Shown: positions 592-58,881 of the stretch, piece after piece | How the letters are laid out: every line of letters starts with the position of its first letter | How positions within the stretch are numbered: the first letter of the stretch is position 1 | Source: Octopus vulgaris | Lineage: Eukaryota | Assembly (NCBI GenBank): GCA_951406725.2 | Contig: OX597839.1 | Location: 25,668,001-25,732,000, forward strand | Length of the DNA: 64,000 nucleotides | Reading direction: 5' to 3' | The notes under the pieces: model-generated | The model's database searches: none | Told to the model about the DNA's origin: nothing | Seen by the model: the letters and a program-made list of their open reading frames with translations, nothing else | Translations under genes and position numbers: made by a program

Positions 592-3540
592 TCATGTATA
601 TACCTCCTGGCTGTTGAGATTATAACACCTCGTTGAAAACAATGTTCCTTGTTTTTCCTTGTGGAGCATATACAAAAAGGTTCTTTTGGTTCCTACTCTT
701 GAGCAGCCAACATACAGTTGCCCATGCGAGAAGCAGGGCTCTTCCAAGAGAAGACCAGCTACAGAGACGGTTTGACCTTGAGATTTATTAATGGACATGG
801 CAAAGCTGACACAAAGGGGGAATTACAGTCTTCTGAATGTAAATGGAATTTCTGCTCCTGATGGAGTAAGAGGAAATCTTGGAATAAAGACGTCATCAGC
901 TTTTCCACATCCAGAAAGAATGATCGCCTCGATAACGTGTGACATCATTTTCTTTATCACCAGTCGTGTTCCATTGCAAAGTCTTGGTGGTTCCAGATTG
1001 CGGAGTAGCTTTACAGGAGTTCCAACTTTAAGTGCTAATATGTGTGGAGGTAGTCCAGGAGGCTCTAGTGAATTGAGAAATTCAGGAGGATAGTTCACAA
1101 CTTCATTTATATCTGGAATTGTATCAACAGACTTGTAAGTGTGTATAGTGCCGGGAAGAGAATGCATTAGCTGTTGATTAATTTTGTTAACATCGACGTT
1201 TTTTGGAGCTGATATCGCTCTTTCACACAGCCAATTGTGATTTTGGTAGTTTTGTGTGAAGTTGGGAAAGACTTTGTTTTTGAGGTCATCTACAGAATTA
1301 ACAACAGAGGAAAATGACCACACTTCCATTTGTCCTGCAACATCGAGAGGCATCTTGCCTTCACCAAGTGTCAAAATGTCCTGTGCAAACTTTGTGGACA
1401 TTTTGTCACCGTGTAGCTGAGCTCTCATGTTAGTGGTGAGACTGAGGATTGTAACATGATGCTACAGGGTAGAGGACTTTAGGCATGCTTGGACTTCATC
1501 TGCTCTAGTGCCTTTCGAAATGACAGGAAGAGTTTGCCTGAAATCACCTGACAACAGAAGCGTTACACCTCCTATTGGAGCCTGACAGTCTCGGATGTCT
1601 TTCAGGGCTCTATCTAATGCTTCCAAAGCTCCCTTGTGAGCCATAGTGCACTCATCCCAGACAATTAGATGACACATTTTAAGTACTTGTCCCTGATCTG
1701 AGCTTTTGTTGATGTTGCATGAAGGCATTTCGGATGCTGCTAAATTGAGAGGGAGTTTAAAAGTTGAGTGTGCTGTCCTGCCACCGGGTAACAAAGTAGC
1801 TGCCATGCCAGAGGAGGCTACGGCTACTGCAATGTCCTGATACTGCGTAACTTCTGCAAGGAGAAGCTTTGTAATAAATGTTTTTCCTGTCCCTCCAGGA
1901 ACAAAGAGGAAGATTCATCCCTCGCGTTGGCGTACACTGTTAAGAATAGTTCTGTAGGCCTGCAGCTGGTCCGGAAGTAATTTAGGCTCATTTTCAACAA
2001 TGTATTTTGAAAGCGCTTGAGTGTCGTAGGTTGTTTCACGAATGACAGCAGTGGGAAGGCTATTTGACCCTGACCTGAATGCTTGTGGCAGGCCATACGT
2101 CAACAATTCATTTACACCCAGTTTAACAATTCTGTCTTCAATGTCAATGAGTGTTTTGTTATAGATTTCATTGCTGATACCCTCCATGTCAGGATAGAGC
2201 AGTTGAGCTTGACGCTGAAAGTCTTCAGCCAGGTTGTCTCTATATTTGAGCCATAGAGTGGCTGGATCACACAGTTCGCATGCCTGTAGTAATACTGCAA
2301 ATAGTGCCCTGAGACTTTTAGGGGATTGTGATAAAGCAGCTTCTCCTAAAGTTGCATCCCATTATGCACCATCTTCTAACAGAGCTTGTCGATAGCAGGC
2401 TTCTCTGTATGTTGTGCAGACATGTCCAAGAACGGTTTTTAGGGCCTGGAAAGACGTTGGCCCTCTGACCTCATGCAGTAGTAGACGAAGGTAGAAGCAC
2501 TCTCGTTGAGTGGGATGCACTGTGTATACTCGCCCAAGGCAAGTGTGAAACTTAATGCCAGGGTATCCATGAACATTTTGACCTGCTTTCCGTGGGGCCC
2601 ATTTTTTTCCACTCCAAGTGTAGTATGATGGAATCTGTGGATACAGCAAGGTTTGAGCGAATGGATCCACTTGACAAAGCTTGAAGAATGCAGTGAGTGT
2701 GCTATCCCTTGGTTCCTCTGCCAACAGAGAAGCATTAGCAACGGTGAAGTATACTCTTTGACCATTTTCCAGGTGCACTGCAAGCTGTTGAATGATGGGG
2801 GTGTCGTTGGTGAATTGGAAAGCCAAAGATGCGCCAGAAAGCCTCGTTGCTATTTATGTACCATCCCACCTGATAATGCGTCACCTCATCCTGGCAGTAT
2901 TCTTGTTGAAGTCCAAACATTGCAGCGTCAGAACCCTTGTTTACATATTTGCAAACGTACTTGATGGATTTAACGGAGTTGCAAAACTCAACATTGATGT
3001 GGGCATTGAAAGTCTTTGACAGGAGTGGGCAGTATGGAACAATCCATCTATTAACAATATTGTGCTGTCCGATAGTTGCTGTGAAACCTCCGTCTTCTGG
3101 TTTTCTGCGTCTGTATGACGGATACTCATCAGTACCTGTCTGAGTTTCTTGTAGAAATCTTTCTGAACATATGCTGTCCTTCAAGCATGGTGTGTTTATG
3201 TTAAATCCATGCCCACATGGACCATGTACCATGTTTGCTTTAACTATTTCGTATAGTTCTTTGTCTAAAGCTGGATCAGGAAGCTCTGCAGAGATTATCT
3301 TGTCGATGTCATTGGAATTGATCTTCGCTGAGAGCCAAAGCAGGTTATGAGCATGTGGAAGGCCCCTTTTTTGCCACTCGATTGTGTACATGTCACATTG
3401 TATGGGCCCAAAGACTTGCCCTTTTTGTATGAGTTCCATGAGAGAGATTAACTTCAGATGGAAAACTCGGGCGTTGAGATTCCGGTTCGAATGTAAGGCA
3501 GGTTTGAAAGTGTTCCCAGCAGTTATTAGTTGTAGTGGTA
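592..3540 (-). pseudogene. Helitron Rep/PIF1-helicase (RepHel) pseudogene
   Basis: ORF pieces carry HUH Rep motif 2 (YTIEWQKRGLPHAH), HGPCG and motif 3 (KYVCKYVNKG). PIF1 motifs follow: PGGTGKT, AATLLPGGRTAHSTFKLP, IVWDECTM, GDFRQTLPV, LCNGTRL, INKSQGQT, FSHGQLYVGCSRV. Split by stops and frameshifts; N-terminus missing. Confidence 0.95.
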
Positions 3541-3603
3541 GAGTGTTTATGCCGAATATGTACGTATGCATGTATACATATGTATGTATGCCTGTATATA
3601 TGT

Positions 3604-3740
3604 ACAAAATCCACTGAGAAGGCTTTTGTTGGTCTGAGGCTACAGCAGAAGACACATGCCAAGTCACCACACAGTGGGACTGAACTCAGGACCATGTGTT
3701 TGGAACATAGTTTGTTACCACACAGCCACACCTGCCCCTA
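3604..3740 (-). mobile_element. SINE family A, 5' fragment
   Basis: Diverged reverse complement of the family A tRNA-like head. Confidence 0.7.
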
Positions 3741-25635: not shown

Positions 25636-26395
25636 CAGTTGAGCATGTCCCTTTGTGGCTGACGATATGTGCATCTCTGATCATGAAGAGGAATAGTTGA
25701 GGAGCATCATAGCCATGTGTTGTGAGAGATTCTTTGGGGTTTGAATAAATCCCCTCTGGAAACATGTTTCGTTCATCATCCTTAAACAAACTTATTCAAG
25801 GACCTTTTGAACAGGATGGGCTACTCGACCTGAAGAAAATTCTAGCCTGGCCCCATCTGCAAGGTCATGCGCTGTTTATCTTGATACGAGATCACCATAT
25901 CGCATACATATGGATATGATGCATGTGCCTGGTGTACCCTTATCAGACGAGTAGTCATGATGGGTATAATGGGCTTCGTATATTTGTGAAGGCGCGTGGC
26001 TCAGTGGTTAGAGCGTCGAGCTTACAATCGTGAGGTTGTGAGCTCGAATCCCGGACCGGGCTGCGTGTTGTGTTCTTGAGCAAGACACTTTATTTCACGT
26101 TGCTCCAGTTCACTCAGCTGTAGAAATGAGTTGCGACGTCACAGGTGCCAAGCTGTATCGGCCCCTTTGCCTTTCCCTTGGACAATATCGGTGACGTGGA
26201 GAGGGGAGGCCGGTATGCATGAGCGACTGCTGGTCTTCCATGAAACAACCTTGCCCAGACTTGTGCCTCAGAGAGTAACTCTCTAGGTGCAAACCCATGG
26301 TCAGTGTCTGACCGAAGGGGGTCACTATCACTATATTTGTACCCCAGTGTCACTTTGATGGCTCTCTCACTCAATAATAATAATAATAATAATAA
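25636..26395 (+). mobile_element. Retroposon 3' end with (AAT)n tail, split by SINE family D
   Basis: Sequence resumes after the SINE D insertion and ends CTCTCACTCAATAATAATAAT. Confidence 0.55.
25987..26323 (+). mobile_element. tRNA-derived SINE family D
   Basis: A-box GTGGCTCAGTGGTTAGAGCG and B-box-like CTCGAATCCC; TATATTTGT repeated on both sides. Second copy at 55728. Confidence 0.85.
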
Positions 26396-45979: not shown

Positions 45980-46027
45980 ACGTAAGCAAACGCAACAGCC
46001 GACAAATCTGCATACAGTCTTGCTTAT

Positions 46028-46074
<47 letters not shown>

Positions 46075-46146
46075 TATATGGCTTATTCATCATGTTGGTT
46101 GTTGGATATGTCATCATCAAAGCTTCACCTTGCCTGCTTGTCTCTG

Positions 46147-46244
46147 TTTAAAATTTTGCCTGAAGATGGTGGATTATATGCTTATGATGTAATCTAAGAA
46201 TGTATCAGTAAAATTCTACCGAAACAGCTGTAGTAAATTTAAAA
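46147..46244 (+). ncRNA. Putative type I hammerhead ribozyme
   Basis: Stem I TTTGC/GTAAA, core CTGAAGA at 46160, stem II GGTGGA/TCTACC, GAAA at 46221, palindromic stem III ACAGCTGT, GUA cleavage triplet ending at 46232. Confidence 0.6.
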
Positions 46245-46578
46245 CCCCATTTGTATTCTTTTTATACACACACACATAAATGCAAGTGTATGAAACAAAC
46301 GATGTGTGTGTGTGTGTGTGGTTGAGACATATAGTGTTAGCTTTTATGTATACTTTCATATTTTAGCCCTTCATCTTGTAACATAACACAGTCCTCATCT
46401 CCACTTTAACCCTACTCGGTCAGAGGGGATCTTAGTCTTGCGAGTTACAAGGCGACATCACTAGTGCCGGTGCCACGAAAAAGAAAAGCACCCAGTACAC
46501 TCAGTGAAGCGGTTGATGTTAATAATATCATACCGCCGTAGACCCCATGCTAAAGCAGGTATTGGAGCCTGAGCAGGT

Positions 46579-46812
46579 AAGGCGGCGAGCTGGCAGAAAC
46601 ATTAGCACGCCGGGCAAAATGCGTAGCCGTATTTCGTCTGCCGTTATGTTCTGAGTTCAAATTCCGCCGAGGTCGACTTTGCCTTTCATCCTTTCGGGGT
46701 CGATAAAGTACCAGTTACGCACTGGGGTCGAAATATAATCAACTCAATCCGTTTGTCTGTCCTTGTTTGTCCTCTCTGTGTTCAGCCCCTTGTGGGTAGT
46801 AAAGAAATAGGT
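46579..46812 (+). mobile_element. SINE family B
   Basis: Full-length; flanking duplication AGGTATTGGAGCCTGA. Confidence 0.9.
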
Positions 46813-47032
46813 ATTGGAGCCTGAAGTAGTCTTCTGTTCCGTCGGTCTCTACAAAACAACCCAAACAGTACAGAGGACGAACGATAAAAGGATTATGATA
46901 ATGATAATGCTGTATATTATTTTCCCTTGTTGCCGCAGGGGGAACGTTCTCTGAAACATGTGATTGATGAAGAAAGAAAGACATGAGCAGAGAGTACACA
47001 CATATATTAATGAATGACAAAAGAACAGGAAT

Positions 47033-47418
47033 TAGGATTGGCTGTGTGGTAAGTAGCTTGCTAACCAACCACATGGTTCCGGGTTCAGTCCCACTGTGTG
47101 GCACCTTGGGCAAGTGTCTTCTGCTATAGCCCCGGGCCGACCAATGCCTTGTGAGTGGATTTGGTAGATGGAAACTGAAAGAAGCCTGTCGTATATATGT
47201 ATGTGTGTGTGTGTTTGTGTGTCTGTGTTTGTCCCCCTAGCATTGCCTGACAACCGATGCTGGTGTGTTTACGTCCCTGTCACTTAGCGGTTCAGCAAAA
47301 GAGGCCGATAGAATAAGTACTGGGCTTACAAAGAATAAGTTCCAGGGTCGATTTGCTCGACTAAAGGCGGTGCTCCAGCATGGCCGCAGTCAAATGACTG
47401 AAACAAGTAAAAGAGTAA
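47033..47418 (+). mobile_element. SINE family A
   Basis: Full-length. Confidence 0.9.
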
Positions 47419-47666
47419 TCAACTTCGTTAGCTTCCAGATGTTTCTGCTAAAGCACTATACTTAGAGTTGAGTGTTTATACAACATCCTTTAGCAGAAAC
47501 AGTTGTTAGCCAATGAAAGCTGTCACGTAACTTCCGTTTTGTTTTTTTTGTCATTCATTTATTGATAAATGTTCTATATTCGCCTGACGCTATACTTTAA
47601 AGCGTAAGTATATTGACTTATAACAACTGGTTATTAGTATCGTTATATCTAAGCGATCTATCTGTC

Positions 47667-47705
<39 letters not shown>

Positions 47706-47707
<2 letters not shown>

Positions 47708-47939
47708 TCTCTTTACTCTTTTACTTGTTTCAGTCATTTGACTGCGGCCAAGCTGGAGCACCGCTTTTAATTGAGCAACTTGACCCTGGGACTTATTCTT
47801 TTGTAAGCCCAGTACTTATTCTATTGGTCTCTTTCGGTCTCTTTTGCCGAACTGCTATGTAACGGGGACATAAACACACCAGCATTGGTTGTCAAGCAAT
47901 GCTAGGGAGACAAACACAGACACACAAACACACACACGC

Positions 47940-47970
<31 letters not shown>

Positions 47971-48135
47971 TACGACGGGTTTCTTTTCAGTTTCCATCTA
48001 CCAAATCAACTCAGAAGGCTTTGGTCGGCCTGAGGCTATAGTAGAAGACACTTGGCAAGGTGCCACGCAGTGGGACTGAACCCGGAACCATGTGGTTGGT
48101 TAACAAGCTACTTACCACACAGCCACTCCTGCGCC

Positions 48136-48136
<1 letters not shown>
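47706..48136 (-). mobile_element. SINE family A
   Basis: Full-length reverse complement. Confidence 0.9.
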
Positions 48137-48204
<68 letters not shown>

Positions 48205-48250
48205 CAAAAGCATAATACAGTTAGATTGATCAACAAGCCGTCGCTCGCCT

Positions 48251-48350
48251 GCATACCTGATGAGTTGAGAGTTACGTAACGCGTTACACAATCTAATTGT
48301 AATATTCTTACGTCAAAATATAAACTCCCAATGAAACAGCTGTAGCAATA
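48251..48350 (+). ncRNA. Hammerhead-like motif (stem I degenerate)
   Basis: CTGATGA at 48257, stem II GTTGAGAGTT/AACTCCCAAT, GAAACAGCTGTA at 48333-48344. Confidence 0.45.
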
Positions 48351-48581
48351 CTAGATAACCGATTTGTCTGTTTTTATTATGCTTTTGCGCCACGCTTCAA
48401 GTTCCAGTCAGCATTGGATACTTTCGTATTCTAATGGAATGGCAGATTACCTAACAACAATGATCTTCGTTCATCGATGCCTCCCGTCCCATGATAATGG
48501 ATTGCTTAACTGCCTGCTTTACATGAAACTGTTTCACCAGTTAGAAGGCATGGTTCATTTTAATATGCCTTGATCCTTAAT

Positions 48582-48624
<43 letters not shown>

Positions 48625-48625
<1 letters not shown>

Positions 48626-48787
48626 GCGCAGGAGTGGCTGTGTGGTAAGTAGCTTGCTTACCAGTCACATGGTTCCAGGTTCAGTCCCACTGCGTGGCAC
48701 CTTGAGCAAGTGTCTTCTACTATAGCCCCGGGCCGACCAAAACCTTGTGAGTGGATTTGGTAGACGGAAACTGAAAGAAGCCCGTCG

Positions 48788-48818
<31 letters not shown>

Positions 48819-49010
48819 CTCTGTGTGTGTGTGTGTCTGTGTTTGTCCCCCCCCCCCACATCCCTTGACATCCGATGCTGGTGAATTTACGTCCCCGTAA
48901 CTTAGTGGTTCGGCAAAAAGCGACCGATAGAATAAGTACTAGACTTACAAAGCTATCGACTAAAAAGTGCTGCTCCAGCATGGCCACAGTCAAATGACTG
49001 AAACAAGTAA
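48625..49010 (+). mobile_element. SINE family A
   Basis: Family match. Confidence 0.9.
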
Positions 49011-49102
49011 AAAAAAAAAAAGGAAAAAGAAATTATAGTAAAGGAGCCCTTGCTCCCTTAATATAATTACATATATATATATATTATTATTAATTTTATA
49101 TT

Positions 49103-49135
<33 letters not shown>

Positions 49136-49359
49136 TTGAAAGTCCTTATGAAAATTACTTAATACAGTTTTTAAGTATAAAATGAATTTTTTTAAAATTA
49201 TTTTTAAAAAAAGTTACAAAAATGTTTTATGAGAATGTCATTAACCTTTTTGGAACAAGTTTTTTTCCTAGACTGTGTGAGCGCTTTCGTAAAATCTTTT
49301 CAAACACACCTGCTCTTGGATAATGGATAAGTATGTATATACGTATATACACACACGCA

Positions 49360-50169
49360 CAGAGGGTGTCCATAAATTACCTTTTACAATTTGGAATATT
49401 CAGAAATATAAAAAGATGACAACAGAATTTATTGGAAAACTTGGGTAAACAAATTCTGTTGTGTCTGGGGAGGGTCATTTTCTTTTTGTGTCTTTACACC
49501 GGTAAAATTTCCACTTATTTCTTATTTTTATTTTCCTAAAATTTTCGTTGCGTCTTGCAACCTTTTCAATAGTTTTGACGATGGAGAAAACCGCTTGTTG
49601 ACAAGATAGACTTAGCCGAATTCCTCATACCCTGTGAGGTTTTATTTTCACGGAAAGGACCGTCATGTAACCACTAGACCAGTGCTTTTCAAACTTTTTG
49701 CTGGAGCGGAACCCCAAGGAAACATTCCACTGGCTCGAGGAACCCCTGTGCAATAATTTAATTGTCCTATGCACACATATCTGCACAGGAAAATTTAAAA
49801 TTACTGTCGATTTTAGCATTTTTGTAACTTCTGTATCTGATGTAGGCGATAACGTTAATAGTCAAGACTATTGAAAAGGTTGCAAGACACAACGAAAATT
49901 TTAGGAAAATAAGAAATAAGTGGAAATTTTACCGGTGAGTGTGTTAAATTTCAAAGGCACTAAAAGAGAATGACTCTCTCCAGACACAACAGAATATGCT
50001 TCAACACACGAACTCATATAAAGAATCTTGCAAACCAAATCCAAAAACGAAATATGGGTAAACAAAGTTTTATTAGAAACATCAGAACAATTATCCTTTT
50101 GGGTCCAGTTACCCTTTTTTTTTTTCTGAATTTTTTTTCAAATTGTAAATATAATTCATGGACACCCTG
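49360..50169. mobile_element. Tc1/mariner-like MITE hosting a nested insertion
   Basis: Imperfect TIRs AGGGTGTCCATAAATTA..TTTACAATTTGG and TCAAATTGTAAA..TAATTCATGGACACCCTG. Confidence 0.6.
49454..50054. mobile_element. Inverted-arm element with captured filler DNA
   Basis: Arms 49453-49579 and 49861-49995 are reverse complements. Direct repeat TGGGTAAACAAA at 49442 and 50055. Filler copies 52609-52819. Confidence 0.7.
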
Positions 50170-50177
50170 GAAAGTAA

Positions 50178-50233
<56 letters not shown>

Positions 50234-50288
50234 AAGAAAGAAAGAGAGAGAGAGAAAGAGAAAAAGAGAGAGAGAAAGAAAGAGAGAG

Positions 50289-50319
<31 letters not shown>

Positions 50320-50346
50320 AAGAGAGAGTGAAAGAGTGAGAGAGAA

Positions 50347-50379
<33 letters not shown>

Positions 50380-50385
50380 AAGAGT

Positions 50386-50416
<31 letters not shown>

Positions 50417-50706
50417 TGTGTGTGTGTGTCAGTGTGTGATGGAAAATTTGCTCAATGAAATCGTAATTAAAAAGTTTTTGACCTTCGGTATAAAACAATA
50501 GTCGTGTAACGAAATTGAGCTGAAGGAAAAGAAATAACCACGTAACCAGAATAAAAGCTGACAAAAGGACAAACAGTATCTCTGTCTCCAAAATGGTGCT
50601 TAGTCACCTGTCACCTGTTGTTGGTGCTGTTGGCATAAATATCTACAGACCATTGGAAGGAATTCCAACCACGTTTTGTGGTTCGCTACCTCAACAGCTC
50701 CTTTAT

Positions 50707-50972
50707 AGGATCCAGTGGCTTAAAGACATCATCAGGAGGAACCACATCCGGTTTCGGCCCCTACGTTTTCGAGGTGGCGCCCCCACCACCACCTAGGATC
50801 CAGTGGCTTAAAGACATCATCAGGAGGAACCACGTCCGGTTTCGGCCCCTACGTTTTCGAGGTGGCGCCCCCCCCCCACCACCTAGGATCCAGTGGCTTA
50901 AAGACATCATCAGGAGGAACCACGTCCGGTTTCGGCCCCTACGTTTTCGAGGTGGCGCCCCCACCACCACCA
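50707..50972. repeat. 3 x ~87-90-bp GC-rich tandem repeat
   Basis: Units start TAGGATCCAGTGGC at ~50707, ~50794 and ~50885. Confidence 0.95.
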
Positions 50973-51508
50973 CTTTCGGGGGTGTCTTCAGCTCAGGTGT
51001 TGAGTGCGTTTTTTTTTTTTTGTTTCTTTTTTCTTCGGCTTTTTGTTCTTTGGTTTCTGCGATGCAACGACAGCGAATGTCAACGATCGAATGACCATCC
51101 TACCAAATTTCCCTTTAAATACTCGCCAGTAGGCTCCAGCACCCGGCATCAGCTAACTGTCACGTGACACCATCTAGGCTGTCTTACGTATTTCATGATA
51201 TAGAGAGTGCAGCTGCCCGCGAGAAATTTACGACTAAACCCACAGATATTACTGTTTTTGTTGGTTACATGAAGGTGCGTGGCGAAGCGGTTTAAGTATT
51301 CAACTCACGATCGTAAAGTTACGAGTTCGATTCCCGGTGAAGAAGAGAGATCTTTACCAAATGCTTTCAACTTAATGTAAGCCCCTTCCAAACCCACTGA
51401 ATGAACCTGAGGATCAAGTGGTTGTGAAGTTAAACATTTAACATCTAATTTCATTTAAAATTCATTAACTCATCCACTGGCGGTAGTGTACTTTGTGGTG
51501 GTTGTGGG

Positions 51509-52394
51509 CAGCGCTGGATTATCCGTTAAGCAAAATAAGCACAAGTTTAGGACATCAAGGGAAGGGGTGGGGCACCACAGAAATGGTAAATGGTTTACGG
51601 TACAAAAGGCGGCGAGCTGGCAGAAACGTTAGCACGCCGGGCGAAATGCTTAGCGGTATTTCGTCTGCCGTTACATTGTGAGTTCAAATTCCGCCAAGGT
51701 CGACTTTGCCTTTCATTCTTTCGGGGTCGATAAATTAAGTACCAGTTACACACTGGAGTCGATGTAATCGACTTAATCCGTTTGTCTGTCCTTATTTGTC
51801 CCCTCTGTGTTTAGCCCCTTGTGGGTAGTAAAAAAAATAGGTAGTGTACCTCGTGGTGGTTGTGGGCAAAAACCGTTAAGCAAAATAAGCACAGGTTTGG
51901 GACATCAAGGGAAGGGGTGGGGCATCACAGAAATGGTAAATAGTTTACGTTACGAAAAAAAATTACTTTAAATATTCGAAGAGGTTTATATGATCAGAAA
52001 CATGATCTTGAAATGTTCATGGCGTCCTAATGAGGATCTGATCAAAGACTTTGTGATTCAAAAGAAAATAGGAGAAAACTGTTCAAACATAAATAAAAGG
52101 GAAGAATACAAAAATGAACCTTATTTTCCATCTTTCTGTTAGTCTTGTGTCATTTTGAAAAATAAACTTCTACGGTTTACCATTGTTTATATTTTGAATT
52201 ATATATGGGGGGCACCAAAATCTGTTAAGTGCTAAGGGCCTCTATGAGTCTTAATCTAACCCTGGTTGTGGGTCTTGTTTCATTTTGAAAAATTAAAATT
52301 TTATGGTTTACCATTGTTTACATTTTGAATTATATACGGGGGCACCAAAATCTTTTAAGTGCTAAGGGCCTCTACGGGTCTTAGTCCAGCCCTG
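51509..52394. mobile_element. hAT-like MITE with duplicated right end
   Basis: GTTGTGGG|CAGCGCTGGATTA ... TAATCTAACCCTG|GTTGTGGG at 52264; second right end TAGTCCAGCCCTG|GTTGTGAG at 52394. Confidence 0.7.
51606..51840 (+). mobile_element. SINE family B with ~120-bp flanking duplication
   Basis: Full-length copy; 51482-51606 is repeated at 51840-51956. Confidence 0.9.
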
Positions 52395-52674
52395 GTTGTG
52401 AGCTTTGTATTTTGACTTGCAGTTATAAAACTTTTCTGACCGCCAGAGGGGGAGGCTCCCCTAAATGTTCAAGATGGAAGACTGTGAGGAAAGATGTTTA
52501 GAAGGAAGTCTGTCACATATTTCGGATCCTTCGTGGTCTTGTTTTCAGAGGGAAGCCCGTTACATATGAATCCCTTATGGGCAGTAATGGCTTTATTTTT
52601 AAAGAGAAAGCCGAATTCCTCATACCCTGTGAGGCTTTATTTTCACGGAAAGGACCGTCACGTAACCACTAGAC

Positions 52675-52885
52675 CAGTGCTTTTCAAACTTTCTGCTGGA
52701 GCGGAACCCCAAGGAAACATTCCACTGGCTCAAGGAACCCCTGTGCAATAATTTAATAGTCTTATGCACACATATCTGCACAGGAAAATTAAAAATTACT
52801 GTCGATTTTTGTAACTTCTTGCGGAACCCCTGGACTGTACTGGCGGAACCCTAAGGTTCCGTGGAACCCTGGTTGAAAACCACTG
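52675..52885 (+). mobile_element. hAT-type MITE (same family as 45779)
   Basis: Perfect 8-bp TSD CACTAGAC on both sides. Confidence 0.9.
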
Positions 52886-53186
52886 CACTAGACACTCAAA
52901 GGCCGTGAGGTACCAGATATTTCAGTGGGTTCCTCATGAACTGTGGGGCCTTAGTTTTAGAGAGACAGAAGTTCGTCACATATTCACAGGTCTCTACCCT
53001 AGACTGATCAGACATCAGATCGATGGATCAATTGAATAATCCCTCCGATATGTCCTGTGTGTGTGCTTCCGCCAATATGCGTATGTAGATATATGTAGGA
53101 CAGTAAAATCACACCTGTCGATGCTAAATATGTGTGCGCGCGCGAAGATAGGTCGGTGTATGTATATGTATATATATATATATATA

Positions 53187-53348
53187 CCGGAGTAAACACA
53201 TAAATGTGAAACAAGGTGGAAAAAAGAGTACTCAAATACCAGTGGTAGAGTAATATGCTTTATTTTAAGCAGCAAAAACTGTCTGATGAACGGCAACGAG
53301 AAACTCAGAGTAACAGATTTTGTTGAATTTTCTGCTGCTTAAAATAAA

Positions 53349-53353
<5 letters not shown>
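53187..53353 (+). mobile_element. Short Penelope-like/retrozyme-like relic carrying a hammerhead
   Basis: Inverted repeat CTTTATTTTAAGCAGCA / TGCTGCTTAAAATAAAG brackets the ribozyme. The 5' part recurs inverted at ~54838-54913. Sits in (TA)n. Confidence 0.55.
53273..53322 (+). ncRNA. Minimal type I hammerhead ribozyme
   Basis: CAAAAACTGT-CTGATGA-ACG GCAA CGA-GAAA-CTCAGAG-TA-ACAGATTTTG: stem I 9/10 bp, GNRA loop II, near-palindromic stem III, GUA triplet. Confidence 0.7.
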
Positions 53354-53381
<28 letters not shown>

Positions 53382-53382
<1 letters not shown>

Positions 53383-53490
53383 CGTAAATCCTCGAGTATA
53401 ATCCGCATTTCCCCCCAAAATTTAAAGGTCAAAATTCCTAGGGCGTACTATATACGAGGTTAAAAATGAAAATGATTTTCTAAGCAATGT
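53382..53490 (+). mobile_element. Truncated copy of the pogo-type MITE at 10660
   Basis: Matches 10660-10769. Confidence 0.85.
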
Positions 53491-53604
53491 ATATATTGTA
53501 GCTCAGGTATACACACACACACCCACACACACAGAGTATTAGACTTTATGTGTGTGTGTGAAGTCAGAGAGAGAGAGAGAGACACAGACAGACAGACAGA
53601 GATG

Positions 53605-54035
53605 CAGACGTGGCTGTGTGGTAAGAAGTTTGCTTCTCAACCACATGGTTCCGGGTTCAGTCCCACCGTGTGGCACCTTGTGCAAGTGTATTGTACAATA
53701 ACTTCGTGAGTAGATTTGGCAGACGGAAACTGAAAGAAGCCCGTCGTGTGTATTGCATTGTGAGCATGTGTGCGCGTGCCTTCGTGTATACGTTTGTCCC
53801 CCACTACCGCTTGACAACCGGTGCTGGTTTGTTTACGTCCCCGTGACTTTGTGGCTCAACGAAAGAGACTGACAGAATAAATGCCAGGCTTCAAAAAAAA
53901 AAAAAGAAAAAGAAAAACGAAGAAAAGAAAAACAACTAAGACCTGGGGGTCGATCCATTCGACTAAAAATTCCCAAAGGCGGTGCTCCAGCATGGCCGCA
54001 GTCTAATGACGGAAAAAAAGTAAAAGATTAAAGAC
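53605..54035 (+). mobile_element. SINE family A (older variant)
   Basis: Family match. Confidence 0.8.
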
Positions 54036-54543
54036 ACGCGCACATACAGTTGCGTGTATAGCTACAGTTAGCCTGGACAACTGTGCCTGCCATGAAAATC
54101 AATAAAAACTCAACATGTATACTTTATTGCTTATTACACACACACGAACGTATTTGAAACTGGAGACACGACCTGGTAAAAGTGCCGAAAACCCATATTG
54201 ATTATTGCGTGACTTTAAAAGCAGGACCTTCAATCCATCAACCCAAACTCTAGTGAAATTGGTTCATTGGTTTGTAAGATCGATTGTCTCTGAAAACAAA
54301 GGTAGAACCCCGAGATATTTACTAAATATACCGCTTGTATCTATCTATCTAGATCTACATCCATACATCTGTCAATCGATTTATCTATAACGCATACACA
54401 CACACACACGCACGCAGATTCATGACTGAGTGGTGTGTGGGACCATGCTGAAGTGGTCCCTACCAAAGGCTCAAGCTGATCAATAAATTGAAACAGGGGA
54501 GGAAGGAAAACTTACTCAGTTGTGTGTATGAATGTGCCGCACG

Positions 54544-54600
<57 letters not shown>

Positions 54601-54782
54601 GAAATATTAAAATAACTAAGTCTCTCTAAAAGAGAACAGCGGCAGCGTTCCCGGAAAATAATAGTTATATGGATACAGTTTGTGTATCAAATAGCTAACT
54701 TAAGGCGATGGCCTCATGGAGCTAATAAGCGGACAGCTTTTTTCTTATTTTTATAAGAATGCCATATTAGTATGGCGATAAC

Positions 54783-54832
<50 letters not shown>

Positions 54833-54912
54833 TTTATTTAAAGCATATTACTCTACCACTGGTATTTGAGTACTCTTTTTTCCACCTTGTTTCACATTTA
54901 TGTGTTTACTCC

Positions 54913-54960
<48 letters not shown>

Positions 54961-55147
54961 ATTAAGGGTTTAGCAACGATTTGCCTCACCACACACCGAA
55001 TTTAGAAATAGCAGTCAAAAAGTTTTGGCTATTCTTTCTATTACTTAGTATTACTTAAACCTTCCTTGAATGGGTCTTTTACATGCCGAACTCTACTTGG
55101 TGAAATTAATGATTATTTCTAAATTAATTAATTTCACCCTTTATTAT

Positions 55148-55220
<73 letters not shown>

Positions 55221-55727
55221 CATACATACATACACACACATACAGGTATGCGCGTGTGTGAAAGTAAATATGACACAAAAACTTCTCTCACAACGCATAA
55301 GAAACATGTTTATATTCCTTATCATAGATAAAACGTGGAGGTGTGATTACACCCTCCAGTTTATCAAATTTTATATCAATGTATCTTAACCATTATATAA
55401 CATTTTCCCCCTGTCTCCCTCACGATCTATGCGTGTAATGTTCATACAGAGAGAGTGGGGAGACAGGTGCGTATGTATATACATATACACTCACACACAC
55501 ATGCGTATATATGTTTATAGACACAGACACACAAAACAACGGAAACTGCTTGTTTATAATCACGGAAATTTTTTATCAAACGGTTATTGTTATCACAATT
55601 AGCAGGTCCCAAAACAGGTCCCAGAATATTGATATACCCCCCACCCCTGCTTAACTTAATGCTGTCATTTCCAAAGGGATCATAAAAAGTGACTTCCACT
55701 GATTGTGTATAAATATGTGTGTGTGTG

Positions 55728-56040
55728 TGAAGGCGCGTGGCTCAGTGGTTAGAGCGTCGAGCTTACGATCGTGAGGTTGTGAGTTCGAATCCTGGACCGG
55801 GCTGCGTGTTGTGTTCTTGAGCAAGACACTTTATTTCACGTTGCTCCAGTTCACTCAGCTGTAGAAATGAGTTGTGACATCACTGGTGTCAAGCTGTATC
55901 GGCCCCTTTGCTTTTCCCTTGGGTAACATTGGTGGGGCGGAGATGAGAAGGCTGGTATGCATGGTCGACTGCTGGACTTGTACCTCGAGGGTAACTTTCA
56001 AGGTGCAATCCCATGGTCATCCGTGACCGAAGGGGGTCTC
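55728..56040 (+). mobile_element. SINE family D
   Basis: Matches 25987-26323. Confidence 0.85.
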
Positions 56041-56388
56041 CTCTGTGTGTGTACGAGTGTATATCTATGCATGTATATATATTTAACGGTTGTTGCTGCT
56101 ATCGTTTAACCCCAGGTCAGCCCTAACCAGGTCAGTCCTATCATCAAAGCCATTTAAACTTCTGATCAGTTTAAAAGAGTTTGTGCTTCCTTTTATAACA
56201 CAAATAGTAATTAGAATGGATGTGGCTGCTATTTCTGAGAAGTCGGGCGACCAGTAAAGGCACCTCGGTGGAATACAACAAGCGCGTGCGCGCACACACA
56301 CAGCTTGTATATATATTGTAGCTTAGGTATACACACACACACACACAGTATTAGACTTTATGTGCGTGTGTGTGAAGTCTGTATGTAT

Positions 56389-56542
56389 GTGGCTGTGTGG
56401 TAAGTAGCTTGCTAACCAACCACATGGTTCTGGGTTCAGTCCCACTGCGTGGCATTTTGGGCAAGTGTCTTATGCTATAGCCCCGGACCGACCAATGCCT
56501 TGTGAGTGGATTTGGTAGACAGAAACTGAAAGAAGCCTGTCG

Positions 56543-56578
<36 letters not shown>

Positions 56579-56800
56579 TGTGTGTGTATGTGTTTGTGTG
56601 TCTGTGTTTGTCCCCCTAGCATTGCTTGACAACCGATGCTGGTGTGTTTACGTCCCCGTCACTTAGCGGTTCGGCAAAAACAGACCGATAGAATAAGTAC
56701 TGGGCTTACAAAGAATAAGTCCCGGGGTCGATTTGCTCGACTAAAGGTGGTGCTCCAGCATGGCCGCAGTCAAATGACTGAAACAAGTGAAAGAGTAAAG
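56389..56800 (+). mobile_element. SINE family A
   Basis: Near full-length. Confidence 0.9.
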
Positions 56801-57645
56801 AGTATATATACGAGTCAAATAGGTCTATGTATAACAGTTTGTAAGTATGTATACGTATGTGTATGTGAGTGTCTGTATGCATGTATGTATAAGCATGTGT
56901 CTGAATGGGTGTGTATATGTATACATGTACTTTCACTTCCCGAACTTTCTACTAACTTGCTCCAACTTCCATTTTCACACACGCAATTTTCGTTTTTCTT
57001 TTCTTTTTTCCTTTTCTCTCTCCCAATCAACATTACATCACTATCAGCTATCATTAACCACATTACTTTAAACTGTAGCCCTCCTAAAATCGGTACCAGG
57101 TCTTTAATTGTGTATATATATATATTCAAGATTAATCAGCCGAAATTGCGAAGATGATCCGGGTCTTGACTGATGATTGAGCGCTTCGAATGTCCCGTCC
57201 TGTGTTTCTTGTGTCGTCTTCTAAATGTTTCACGTTCTTGTCCCAGTTTGTATATATTTTTTTACTTTTACATATATATATATATATATATTCGTAAGTG
57301 CGCACGTTTTAATAAATAAACGTTGACATTTTCAGTTTCAATACAGAATTTTATTTATTGTGAGTGACTTTGCACTATTTTCTCTGGACACTGAATTCAG
57401 AGTGTATGTATGTATATATTTATATATATATAAAATAAAATACAAAATGGGACAAGATCGCAAAACATCCGGACAACTAGGTGATACAAAAAGGGACAGC
57501 AAAACATCCGAAGAGATGGTGTTGTGGATTTCCACTTCGGCATCCGAAACTCAGAGTTTTATCTTGGCTATTGAATAATTGTCACATATTAATTTACAGA
57601 TATATATATATATATATATATTAGGAAGTTAAATGTTTTGGCCGG

Positions 57646-57720
57646 TCGTAGAGTGACCATTGACTTCGCACCCAAGAAGCGCTTGGCAGTTGAGGCGATT
57701 CGTCAGACTCAAATGGACGA
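57646..57720 (-). ncRNA. Hammerhead-like motif with A15.1G variant, sense to the BICDR intron
   Basis: Minus strand TCGT-CCATTT-GAGT-CTGACGA-...-GAAG-TCAATGG-TC-ACTC-T-ACGA: bulged stem I and GUC triplet. Confidence 0.5.
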
Positions 57721-57848
57721 TACACACCCATATACCCAGGTATATAGGTATATATAAATATATATAGACATATACATATACACACATGTATATGCGTGTG
57801 TGTGTGTGTGTGGAAAGAGGTGTGTATGTATACACACAATATGCATGC

Positions 57849-57901
<53 letters not shown>

Positions 57902-58602: not shown

Positions 58603-58881
58603 ATCAATTTTTAGCGTATATTCCTCCACTAACGTTTCGTTTTTTCGCAGAAGTTCATCATTTTTTTCCAAGAGGGCCTTACCAAGTTCTGCAGCCAGGA
58701 TTAGATCCCGGTCCTTTTGGGCGAGCTGCGCGAAGACATCGTCCTCGGGCAACTCCTTAGCATTTTGAAATTCCATGTCGATTAAATGGTAGTAATCCTC
58801 CAATTCTAGCGAAACATCCTTCCTGGTAGCATACTTCGATCTGCGGCTGCTGTTGTTACGTTGCAAAGAACACGAACACAT
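58603..58881 (-). CDS. BICDL1: First coding exon of a Bicaudal-D-related dynein cargo adaptor (BICDR/BICDL1-like)
   Basis: Reads DDVFAQLAQKDRDLILAAELGKALLEKNDELLRKNETLVEEYTLKID, a coiled coil with the CC1 box AAxxG. Ends phase 0 at a perfect GTAAGT donor (58602-58597). Start Met at 58881 or 58776. CDR2, HAP1 and TRAK are related alternatives. Confidence 0.8.

What the first reader, a model, noticed from the sequence alone, without database searches (positions are those of the whole stretch)
46147..57720. Cluster of minimal type I hammerhead ribozyme motifs in the first intron of a dynein-adaptor gene
Seen: at least five unrelated short sequences carry CUGANGA...GAAA...NUH cores or near-variants, at 46160(+), 48257(+), 53283(+), 57508(+, degenerate CCGAAGA) and 57706(-). 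None was found by eye in the first 45 kb. Stem III is (near-)palindromic and shared in pairs: ACAGCTGT twice and ACTCAGAGT twice. Established: minimal type I hammerheads with palindromic stem III mark Penelope-like elements and non-LTR retrozymes, and cleave as dimers. Inference: these are several non-autonomous PLE/retrozyme families, most antisense and one sense to the host pre-mRNA.
Basis: partly seen in the sequence, partly recalled or inferred. Interest (0 to 1): 0.75.

Follow-up and report, generated by a model that had tools for sequence, protein, structure and literature searches.

The report
Retroelement stumps, one rewired hammerhead
The five flagged motifs are real hammerhead-ribozyme sequences at the ends of common repeats, likely Penelope-type jumping-gene fragments that piled up harmlessly in an AT-repeat-rich patch of a long octopus intron, and a sixth fragment among them belongs to a family whose hammerhead parts come in a scrambled order that is predicted, but not shown, to cut RNA.

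Summary
All five motifs are at the stated places and exceed shuffles (4 cores against 0.1 expected). Each is one copy of a dispersed repeat family whose consensus folds as a minimal type I hammerhead with a palindromic helix III, a known mark of Penelope-like element (PLE) ends. Two families continue upstream into a PLE ORF in long copies, so they are 5'-truncated stumps, not retrozymes. Only 46160 is intact; the one copy in host sense (57706) has a broken core. The cluster is a post hoc, roughly 9-fold local excess in a (TA)n-rich patch of a 130-kb intron of a BICDR gene.

Its family (3,417 exact matches of a 30-mer) carries a non-circularly permuted hammerhead whose helix II 5' strand lies upstream instead of after CUGAnGA. 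Stems I-III are 96-97% paired across three subfamilies with compensatory changes in 9 of 16 pairs, and published octopus Naiad 3' ends show the same wiring. I found no paper describing it; this scan noted it earlier on other DNA. Cleavage is untested, and the window copy is truncated at the predicted cut site.

The parts
46110..46270 (+). H1: PLE-type 3' end with an intact minimal type I hammerhead (core 46160, one extra base after A9, G10.1-C11.1, GAAA at 46221, palindromic helix III, predicted cut after 46232)
   Evidence: 753 first-look candidates, other copies 78-88% identical; family consensus folds the same way; a PLE thumb and RT remnant lies near one copy, L041, which is only suggestive
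48215..48580 (+). H2: old repeat with a minimal type I hammerhead and long helix II; this copy has lost about 8 bases of the 5' arm of stem I
   Evidence: 112 candidates, 69-84% identity; comparison with L052, L053, L067; stem I only 2 pairs in the descriptor; no ORF found in cis
53186..53349 (+). H3: young insertion in (TA)n made of an inverted 3' tail (53186-53275) joined to the hammerhead-bearing end (core 53283, GAAA 53300); helix II only 2 bp with a GCAA loop and no G10.1-C11.1
   Evidence: 183 candidates, many 94-100% identical, junctions vary between copies; no ORF found in cis
54832..54914 (+). Solo 3' tail of the H3 family in (TA)n, without the ribozyme
   Evidence: blastn, 74 of 74 bases identical
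57126..57270 (+).
   Evidence: 3,417 exact 30-mer matches, 0 for the reversed control; subfamily consensus; pair counts; partial tandems
57433..57509 (-). Inverted 3' tail of subfamily C of the permuted-hammerhead family, joined to H4 at about 2 bases of microhomology (cross-family inverted chimera)
   Evidence: blastn 86-94% to subfamily C tails; similar chimeras seen at L226 and L343
57508..57600 (+). H4: 3' end of a C-terminal-endonuclease PLE; minimal type I hammerhead with U4C core; this copy starts at C3 and lacks the 5' arm of stem I
   Evidence: 2,410 candidates, matches begin at 57508; CCGAAGA in 21 of 21 parsed long copies, 25 examined; ORF in cis, 319 aa at 42% to P0034, E 2e-72, in L410
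57621..57716 (-). H5: 3' end of a PLE, sense to the host gene; core broken in this copy (A15.1 is G, next base also changed)
   Evidence: 289 candidates; intact helix III motif in 12 of 19 other copies; GIY-YIG remnant about 115 bases upstream in L093
58603..58881 (-). First coding exon of the BICDR-like host gene; exon 2 lies about 130 kb away
   Evidence: 100% identity to octopus 'Bicaudal D-related protein homolog'; exon map

Best explanation
The five motifs are hammerhead-bearing ends of high-copy repeats, likely 5'-truncated Penelope-like retroelement copies inserted one by one into (TA)n tracts with no likely effect on the host gene, and a sixth fragment comes from a family with a rewired hammerhead that is predicted to self-cleave only in full-length copies. 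Mechanism: PLE RT/GIY-YIG proteins nick AT-rich DNA and copy the RNA from near its 3' end, often stop early and often add an inverted second copy (known from PMC8557442 and PMC11167929; the layout is shown here, the enzymology is inferred). The minimal ribozymes would cut only as dimers through the palindromic helix III or with protein help (literature), and cutting appears dispensable for spreading, since a U4C core is fixed in a young, abundant subfamily (inferred). In the sixth family the order is: helix II 5' strand, cut site, GAAA block, CUGAnGA block. After A9 the chain leaves through an extra helix X and re-enters at G10.1 through a hairpin Y, making a four-way junction (pairing of stems I-III shown by covariation; junction geometry and catalysis inferred).
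For: Each motif is a dispersed family. Inverted partners within 25 bases: 31 H3-H3, 13 H4-H4, 5 H5-H5 and 4 permuted-family pairs among the fetched loci; (TA)n flanks and tails. ORF in cis for H4 and H5. The genome holds intact PLEs (781-aa RT plus GIY-YIG frames) with min-HHR-like motifs in their 3' repeats. Background is 11 cores per 300 kb; TA runs per 10 kb are 16.8 in the region, 10.1 in random DNA and 5.3 in the first 45 kb. Permuted family: stems II, III, I are 96.0, 96.9 and 97.4% paired in 45 copies; 9 of 16 pairs change on both sides; slid controls give 27-51% paired. The Naiad_Ovul and Naiad_Obim 3' ends show the same order with unrelated stem sequences (read by eye).
Against: The local excess is not fully explained: 4 cores against 0.44 expected, Poisson P 0.001, though the interval was drawn around the hits. 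No ORF was found in cis for H2, H3 or the permuted family. Covariation comes from only three subfamilies, so independent events are few; the count of pairs with a two-sided change is not above the column shuffle (104 of 500 reach it) and helix X is only 84% paired with mismatches next to A9 in subfamily A. An insertion of two helices between A9 and G10.1 has no precedent in the papers I read. No cleavage data exist for any of these.
Confidence: 0.85

Rival explanations
1. The motifs are non-autonomous, non-LTR retrozymes that make small circular RNAs.
For: The permuted family has ORF-less units of about 770-890 bases in partial tandems; no ORF link was found for H2 and H3.
Against: No tandem arrays at any of the six sites; H4 and H5 continue into PLE ORFs; upstream copies in the tandems I printed are 5'-truncated inside the ribozyme.
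Confidence: 0.08
2. The cluster was kept by selection to regulate the BICDR pre-mRNA or an antisense transcript, perhaps through cross-family dimers that share a palindrome.
For: Roughly 9-fold local excess near the 5' end of intron 1; H3 and H4 share their helix III palindrome in consensus.
Against: Five of six motifs are antisense; the sense copy has a broken core; only H1 is intact; H3 and H4 copies are very young (94-100% to other copies).
Confidence: 0.03
3. The permuted structure is real but no longer catalytic: a hammerhead-derived fold that serves as protein-binding or RT-start signal, with 5' ends set by a promoter or RT stop rather than by cleavage.
For: In a lizard PLE, HHR cleavage was not needed for insertion and needed the protein (PMC11167929). 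5' ends also cluster just upstream of the core in the type I H4 family (17 of 18 measurable between -5 and -21), where self-cleavage cannot explain them.
Against: All core bases (CUGAnGA, GAAA, U16.1, H17, G10.1-C11.1) are kept in three subfamilies and in the Naiad ends while the stems turn over; the upstream edge of the 5'-end peak is the predicted cut site.
Confidence: 0.35
4. The motifs are chance matches.
For: The descriptor was loosened after seeing the motifs; Rfam finds none.
Against: 0 of 60 shuffles reach the observed count; family consensus sequences are better ribozymes than the window copies.
Confidence: 0.01

Closest known systems
Minimal and palindromic-helix-III type I hammerheads in PLE pseudo-LTRs (Cervera and De la Pena 2014, PMC4209133; read parts 1-2 of 4)
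   Same: Core, extra base between 9 and 10.1 (H1), long or bulged helix II, small palindromic helix III, mostly single truncated copies, inverted pairs, many sequence families per genome.
   Different: Octopus families are not mentioned in what I read; H3 has a 2-bp helix II without G10.1-C11.1; H4 has U4C fixed.
EN+ PLE insertions with inverted 5'-truncated copy and tail (Craig et al. 2021, PMC8557442, passages and supplement; Frangieh et al. 2024, PMC11167929, parts 1-2 of 4)
   Same: 5' truncation, partial tandems, inverted copy, optional tail, AT-rich or (TA)n targets.
   Different: The inverted partner of H4 here comes from a different family, which implies two RNAs in one insertion or later recombination.
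Type-SGC hammerhead, HRIMA-1 (Eckert et al. 2023, PMC10085705; read parts 1-5 of 8, supplements not seen)
   Same: Order cut site, GAAA, CUGAnGA; pseudoknotted stems I-III; an extra stem joining the distal sides of stems I and II.
   Different: The helix II 5' strand lies upstream of the cut site, not after CUGAnGA, which breaks their 'block C cannot be interrupted' assumption; extra helices X and Y; found in thousands of copies in an animal genome, whereas they report no type-SGC motif from genomes of known organisms.
Naiad PLEs, Naiad_Ovul marked 'HHR_half_core' (PMC8557442 File S1)
   Same: Same four-segment wiring at the 3' end (read by eye), (TA)n target.
   Different: Stem and linker sequences are unrelated; no Naiad ORF found in cis with H6; the authors state Naiads lack canonical HHRs and did not describe this fold in the passages I read.
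Non-LTR retrozymes (Cervera and De la Pena 2020, PMC7229834, passages; Li et al. 2026 bioRxiv 10.64898/2026.07.22.740005, part 1 of 5)
   Same: Type I hammerheads in animal repeats linked to PLEs.
   Different: Those are tandem 150-450-base repeats with canonical ribozymes; these are single stumps with minimal ribozymes.

Membership tests
PLE minimal type I hammerhead (H1-H5) | CUGAnGA and GAAA cores with NUH, helices I and II | tested here: met
   Met in all five family consensus sequences (H4 with U4C, H3 with weak helix II); in the window only H1 is fully intact
PLE minimal type I hammerhead (H1-H5) | Small palindromic helix III | tested here: met
   All five families
PLE minimal type I hammerhead (H1-H5) | Lies in the 3' repeat downstream of an RT and GIY-YIG ORF | tested here: inconclusive
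   Met for H4 (6 of 25 long copies) and H5 (1 of 19), suggestive for H1 (L041), not found for H2 and H3 within 1.5 kb flanks
PLE minimal type I hammerhead (H1-H5) | 5' truncation, inverted partner, tail, AT-rich target | tested here: met
   Clear for H3, H4, H5; seen by eye in some H1 and H2 copies
PLE minimal type I hammerhead (H1-H5) | Self-cleavage as dimers | not testable with these tools
   Needs in vitro assay
Non-LTR retrozyme | Tandem 150-450-base units, each with a ribozyme | tested here: not met
   No such array in 46000-57900
Non-LTR retrozyme | Expressed as circular RNA | not testable with these tools
   Only contig-level runs were available
Type-SGC hammerhead (H6 family) | Block order S, G, C with covarying stems I and III | tested here: met
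   Stem III 3 of 5 and stem I 2 of 6 pairs change on both sides
Type-SGC hammerhead (H6 family) | Helix II 5' strand directly 3' of CUGAnGA (uninterrupted block C) | tested here: not met
   The covarying partner lies upstream (4 of 5 pairs); the downstream candidate fails in subfamily C
Type-SGC hammerhead (H6 family) | Extra stem joining stems I and II | tested here: met
   69.7% paired as aligned, with subfamily B one column out of register; 154 of 156 cells in the 26 of 28 B copies that a motif filter parsed (the filter favours pairing)
Type-SGC hammerhead (H6 family) | Site-specific self-cleavage | not testable with these tools
   Only indirect 5'-end data
Naiad PLE (H6 family) | N-terminal GIY-YIG plus RT ORF in cis | tested here: inconclusive
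   Unit is ORF-less; no contiguous ORF by tblastn with C-terminal-EN PLE queries; no Naiad protein was used as query
Naiad PLE (H6 family) | Same ribozyme wiring at the 3' end as published Naiads | tested here: met
   Naiad_Ovul and Naiad_Obim, read by eye
Rfam hammerhead families | Score at the gathering threshold | tested here: not met

The most novel reading that the evidence does not exclude
The 57126 fragment represents an active four-segment hammerhead, a natural permutation beyond the six thought possible, in which A9 and G10.1 sit on different strands and are rejoined by a four-way junction. It is the missing ribozyme of Naiad-type retroelements, exists in tens of thousands of copies in octopus, and its cut sets the 5' end of short copies like this one. 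The neighbouring cross-family inverted chimera records one PLE integration using two different RNAs.
Probability: 0.55. Interest if true: 0.78.

Novelty: new variant of a known kind. Interest (0 to 1): 0.55.

Why it matters
The five flagged motifs alone are ordinary (about 0.2): new members of a known kind. The sixth would extend the known topologies of the best-studied small ribozyme, move non-circular permutations from metatranscriptome contigs into an animal genome at high copy number, and overturn the statement that Naiads lack a hammerhead. It is testable with one in vitro transcription series. The label 'new variant' refers to this sixth motif.

Tried and rejected
First descriptor too strict, 0 hits. 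Pfam PF26215 not held. A 47-aa piece of the L093 endonuclease and the L389 endonuclease gave no Pfam GIY-YIG hit, nor did P0034; their assignment rests on motif reading, the homolog P0034 and a weak match to a Pfam-positive PLE ORF (E 0.004). H6 read as type I or type III: rejected, the downstream GAAU does not pair with either site. H6 read as plain type SGC with a downstream helix II strand: rejected, fails in subfamily C. My early note of a 6-base microhomology at 57508 was wrong; it is about 2 bases. H3 and H4 copies next to GIY-YIG ORFs in L183, L379 and L086 are separate insertions in (TA)n, not cis links. RNA: no RNA holder listed on record, and contigs cannot show ends. An RNA model was built but not used. 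Lunse et al. 2017 is not held; only its title was seen. Single-strand MFE folds of window copies mostly miss the ribozyme fold and were not used as evidence.
Full report
Setting. The exon at 58603-58776 (minus strand) is 100% identical to octopus proteins named Bicaudal D-related protein homolog. Exon 2 lies about 130 kb away, so everything left of 58602 is intron 1, including the first 45 kb. 'Dynein adaptor' is my recalled function for this family.

Observation. A min-HHR descriptor, loosened after a first version found nothing, finds 4 zero-mismatch cores in 11.9 kb against 0.1 in 60 shuffles, and 2 with a stem I of 4 or more pairs against 0.02. Rfam lists no hammerhead family among 150 shown of 206 window matches or in 8 related loci.

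Each motif is a repeat family. Own-genome searches gave 753, 112, 183, 2,410 and 289 first-look candidates for 46160, 48257, 53283, 57508 and 57706, of which 40 each were scored. Consensus sequences from 19, 19, 28, 19 and 19 other copies fold as type I minimal hammerheads with palindromic helix III. Against these, the window copies are: H1 intact; H2 with part of the 5' stem I arm deleted and a private change in the palindrome; H3 typical of its family but with a 2-bp helix II; H4 starting at C3 without its 5' stem I arm; H5 with A15.1 and the next base changed.

They are PLE ends. Copies sit in (TA)n, vary at the 5' end, end with or without a tail, and often have an inverted partner, the layout described for EN+ PLEs (PMC8557442, passages). 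Long H4 copies carry a GIY-YIG-like frame about 770 bases upstream in 6 of 25 loci; L410 matches 319 residues of a 704-aa RT-endonuclease protein at 42%. One of 19 H5 loci has a similar remnant about 115 bases upstream. I read these as Penelope/Poseidon type from recalled motifs; Pfam did not confirm. H1 has one suggestive locus; H2 and H3 none. The genome has intact PLEs with RVT_1 and GIY-YIG hits and min-HHR-like motifs in their 3' repeats. Minimal HHRs with an extra base after A9 and palindromic helix III are described for PLEs, with low cleavage and only as multimers (PMC4209133, parts 1-2). In a lizard PLE, cleavage needed protein and was not needed for insertion (PMC11167929, parts 1-2).

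The cluster. Thirty 10-kb stretches at round coordinates (10 on this chromosome) hold 11 cores, and 100 kb of flanks hold 1. Four in 11.9 kb has Poisson P 0.001, but the interval was drawn around the hits. TA runs are 1.7 times denser here than in the random set and 3 times denser than in the first 45 kb, and three motifs share one 600-base TA-rich patch. Five of six are antisense to the host and the sense copy is broken, so I infer no effect on the gene.

A sixth motif. 57126-57270 belongs to a family with 3,417 exact matches of a 30-mer (0 for the reversed pattern); profile hits number 8 in the 300-kb random set. Full units are about 770-890 bases, ORF-less, in partial tandems with a tail. 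From relatives I found stems I and III pairing in the order cut site, GAAA, CUGAnGA, as in type SGC (PMC10085705, parts 1-5 of 8), but could not place helix II. Earlier scan notes pointed to an upstream strand and to Naiads, and I tested both. In an alignment of 45 of 75 prepared full-length copies, 15 from each of three subfamilies, stems II, III and I are 96.0, 96.9 and 97.4% paired, and 9 of 16 pairs change on both sides, 8 of them in 11 or more copies. Slid controls give 27-51% paired. Against: the number of pairs with two-sided change is reached by 104 of 500 column shuffles, the three subfamilies give few independent events, helix X is 84% paired, and stem P is 70% as aligned because subfamily B is one column off. 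Hairpin Y was judged from the consensus by eye. The published Naiad_Ovul and Naiad_Obim ends show the same order with unrelated sequences and fully paired stems I, II and III (by eye); Naiad_Ovul is annotated only as 'HHR_half_core'. No Naiad ORF was linked to H6 itself.

5' ends. Of 94 pattern matches in 90 loci taken from the first 100 listed, 37 begin at +1 to +34 after the predicted cut, 30 of them at +1 to +16, and 3 in the 37 bases before it. The rate is 2.6% per base against 0.19% upstream (binomial P 3e-15, window chosen after seeing the data). The window copy begins at +1. This fits a cleaved RNA, but H4 copies also cluster just upstream of their core (17 of 18, a top-hit sample), so a promoter or RT stop remains possible.

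Chimera. 57433-57509 (minus) is the 3' tail of subfamily C joined to H4 at about 2 shared bases; L226 and L343 show similar cross-subfamily inversions. Since a PLE protein extends both DNA strands in vitro, two RNAs in one insertion is plausible; this is inference.

Novelty. Searches for type-SGC or non-circular hammerheads since 2023, Naiad with hammerhead, four-way junction with retrotransposon and permuted hammerhead with Penelope returned no title or abstract describing this wiring; I read the listings, not all the papers. A 2026 octopus repeat annotation lists PLEs and has no occurrence of 'ribozyme' or 'hammerhead' (PMC13282606, passages). Subscription papers are not covered. This scan noted the family before on other DNA; nothing was on record near this locus.

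Verdict. The flagged cluster is real and ordinary (about 0.2 alone). The sixth motif is a new variant with good structural support and no activity data. Overall interest 0.55.

Noticed in passing
L176-L183 (e.g. L179:1068-5790): Young two-ORF PLE family (479-aa upstream frame plus 781-aa RT-endonuclease with a cysteine linker, Neptune-like by recall) whose 3' repeat has a min-HHR-like motif with the U3-A8 core variant.
   Followed up: partly
L193, L195, L186 about 500 bases after the stop codon: Second PLE family with a canonical min-HHR and a 6-base palindromic helix III in cis.
   Followed up: partly
window 592-3685 (-): Broken Helitron-like Rep/helicase frames (label recalled from motifs).
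   Followed up: no
window 25659-25770 (+): Weak hammerhead-descriptor hit with short stems, probably chance.
   Followed up: partly
window 50706-50971 and 52142-52415: 90-base and 130-base tandem repeats; a CUGAnGA..GAAA match at 50991 (-) has no helix III or stem I.
   Followed up: no
L013, L073, L082, L085, L099-L103: Short copies of the H3, H4 and H5 families tend to begin at a CAG 10-20 bases upstream of the core, preceded by pyrimidines in long H4 copies; in D. virilis Penelope an intron ends at this position (PMC4209133).
   Followed up: partly
L382:1484-1925 (oriented, minus strand): GIY-YIG-like frame unlike the other PLE endonucleases, possibly Hydra clade (recalled).
   Followed up: no
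P0004: The O. sinensis homolog of the host gene is labelled 'RUS family member 1', which looks like a fused gene model.
   Followed up: no
L166, L168, L317, L319, L323, L324, L335, L159, L377: Further min-HHR families with other helix III palindromes in random genome stretches.
   Followed up: no
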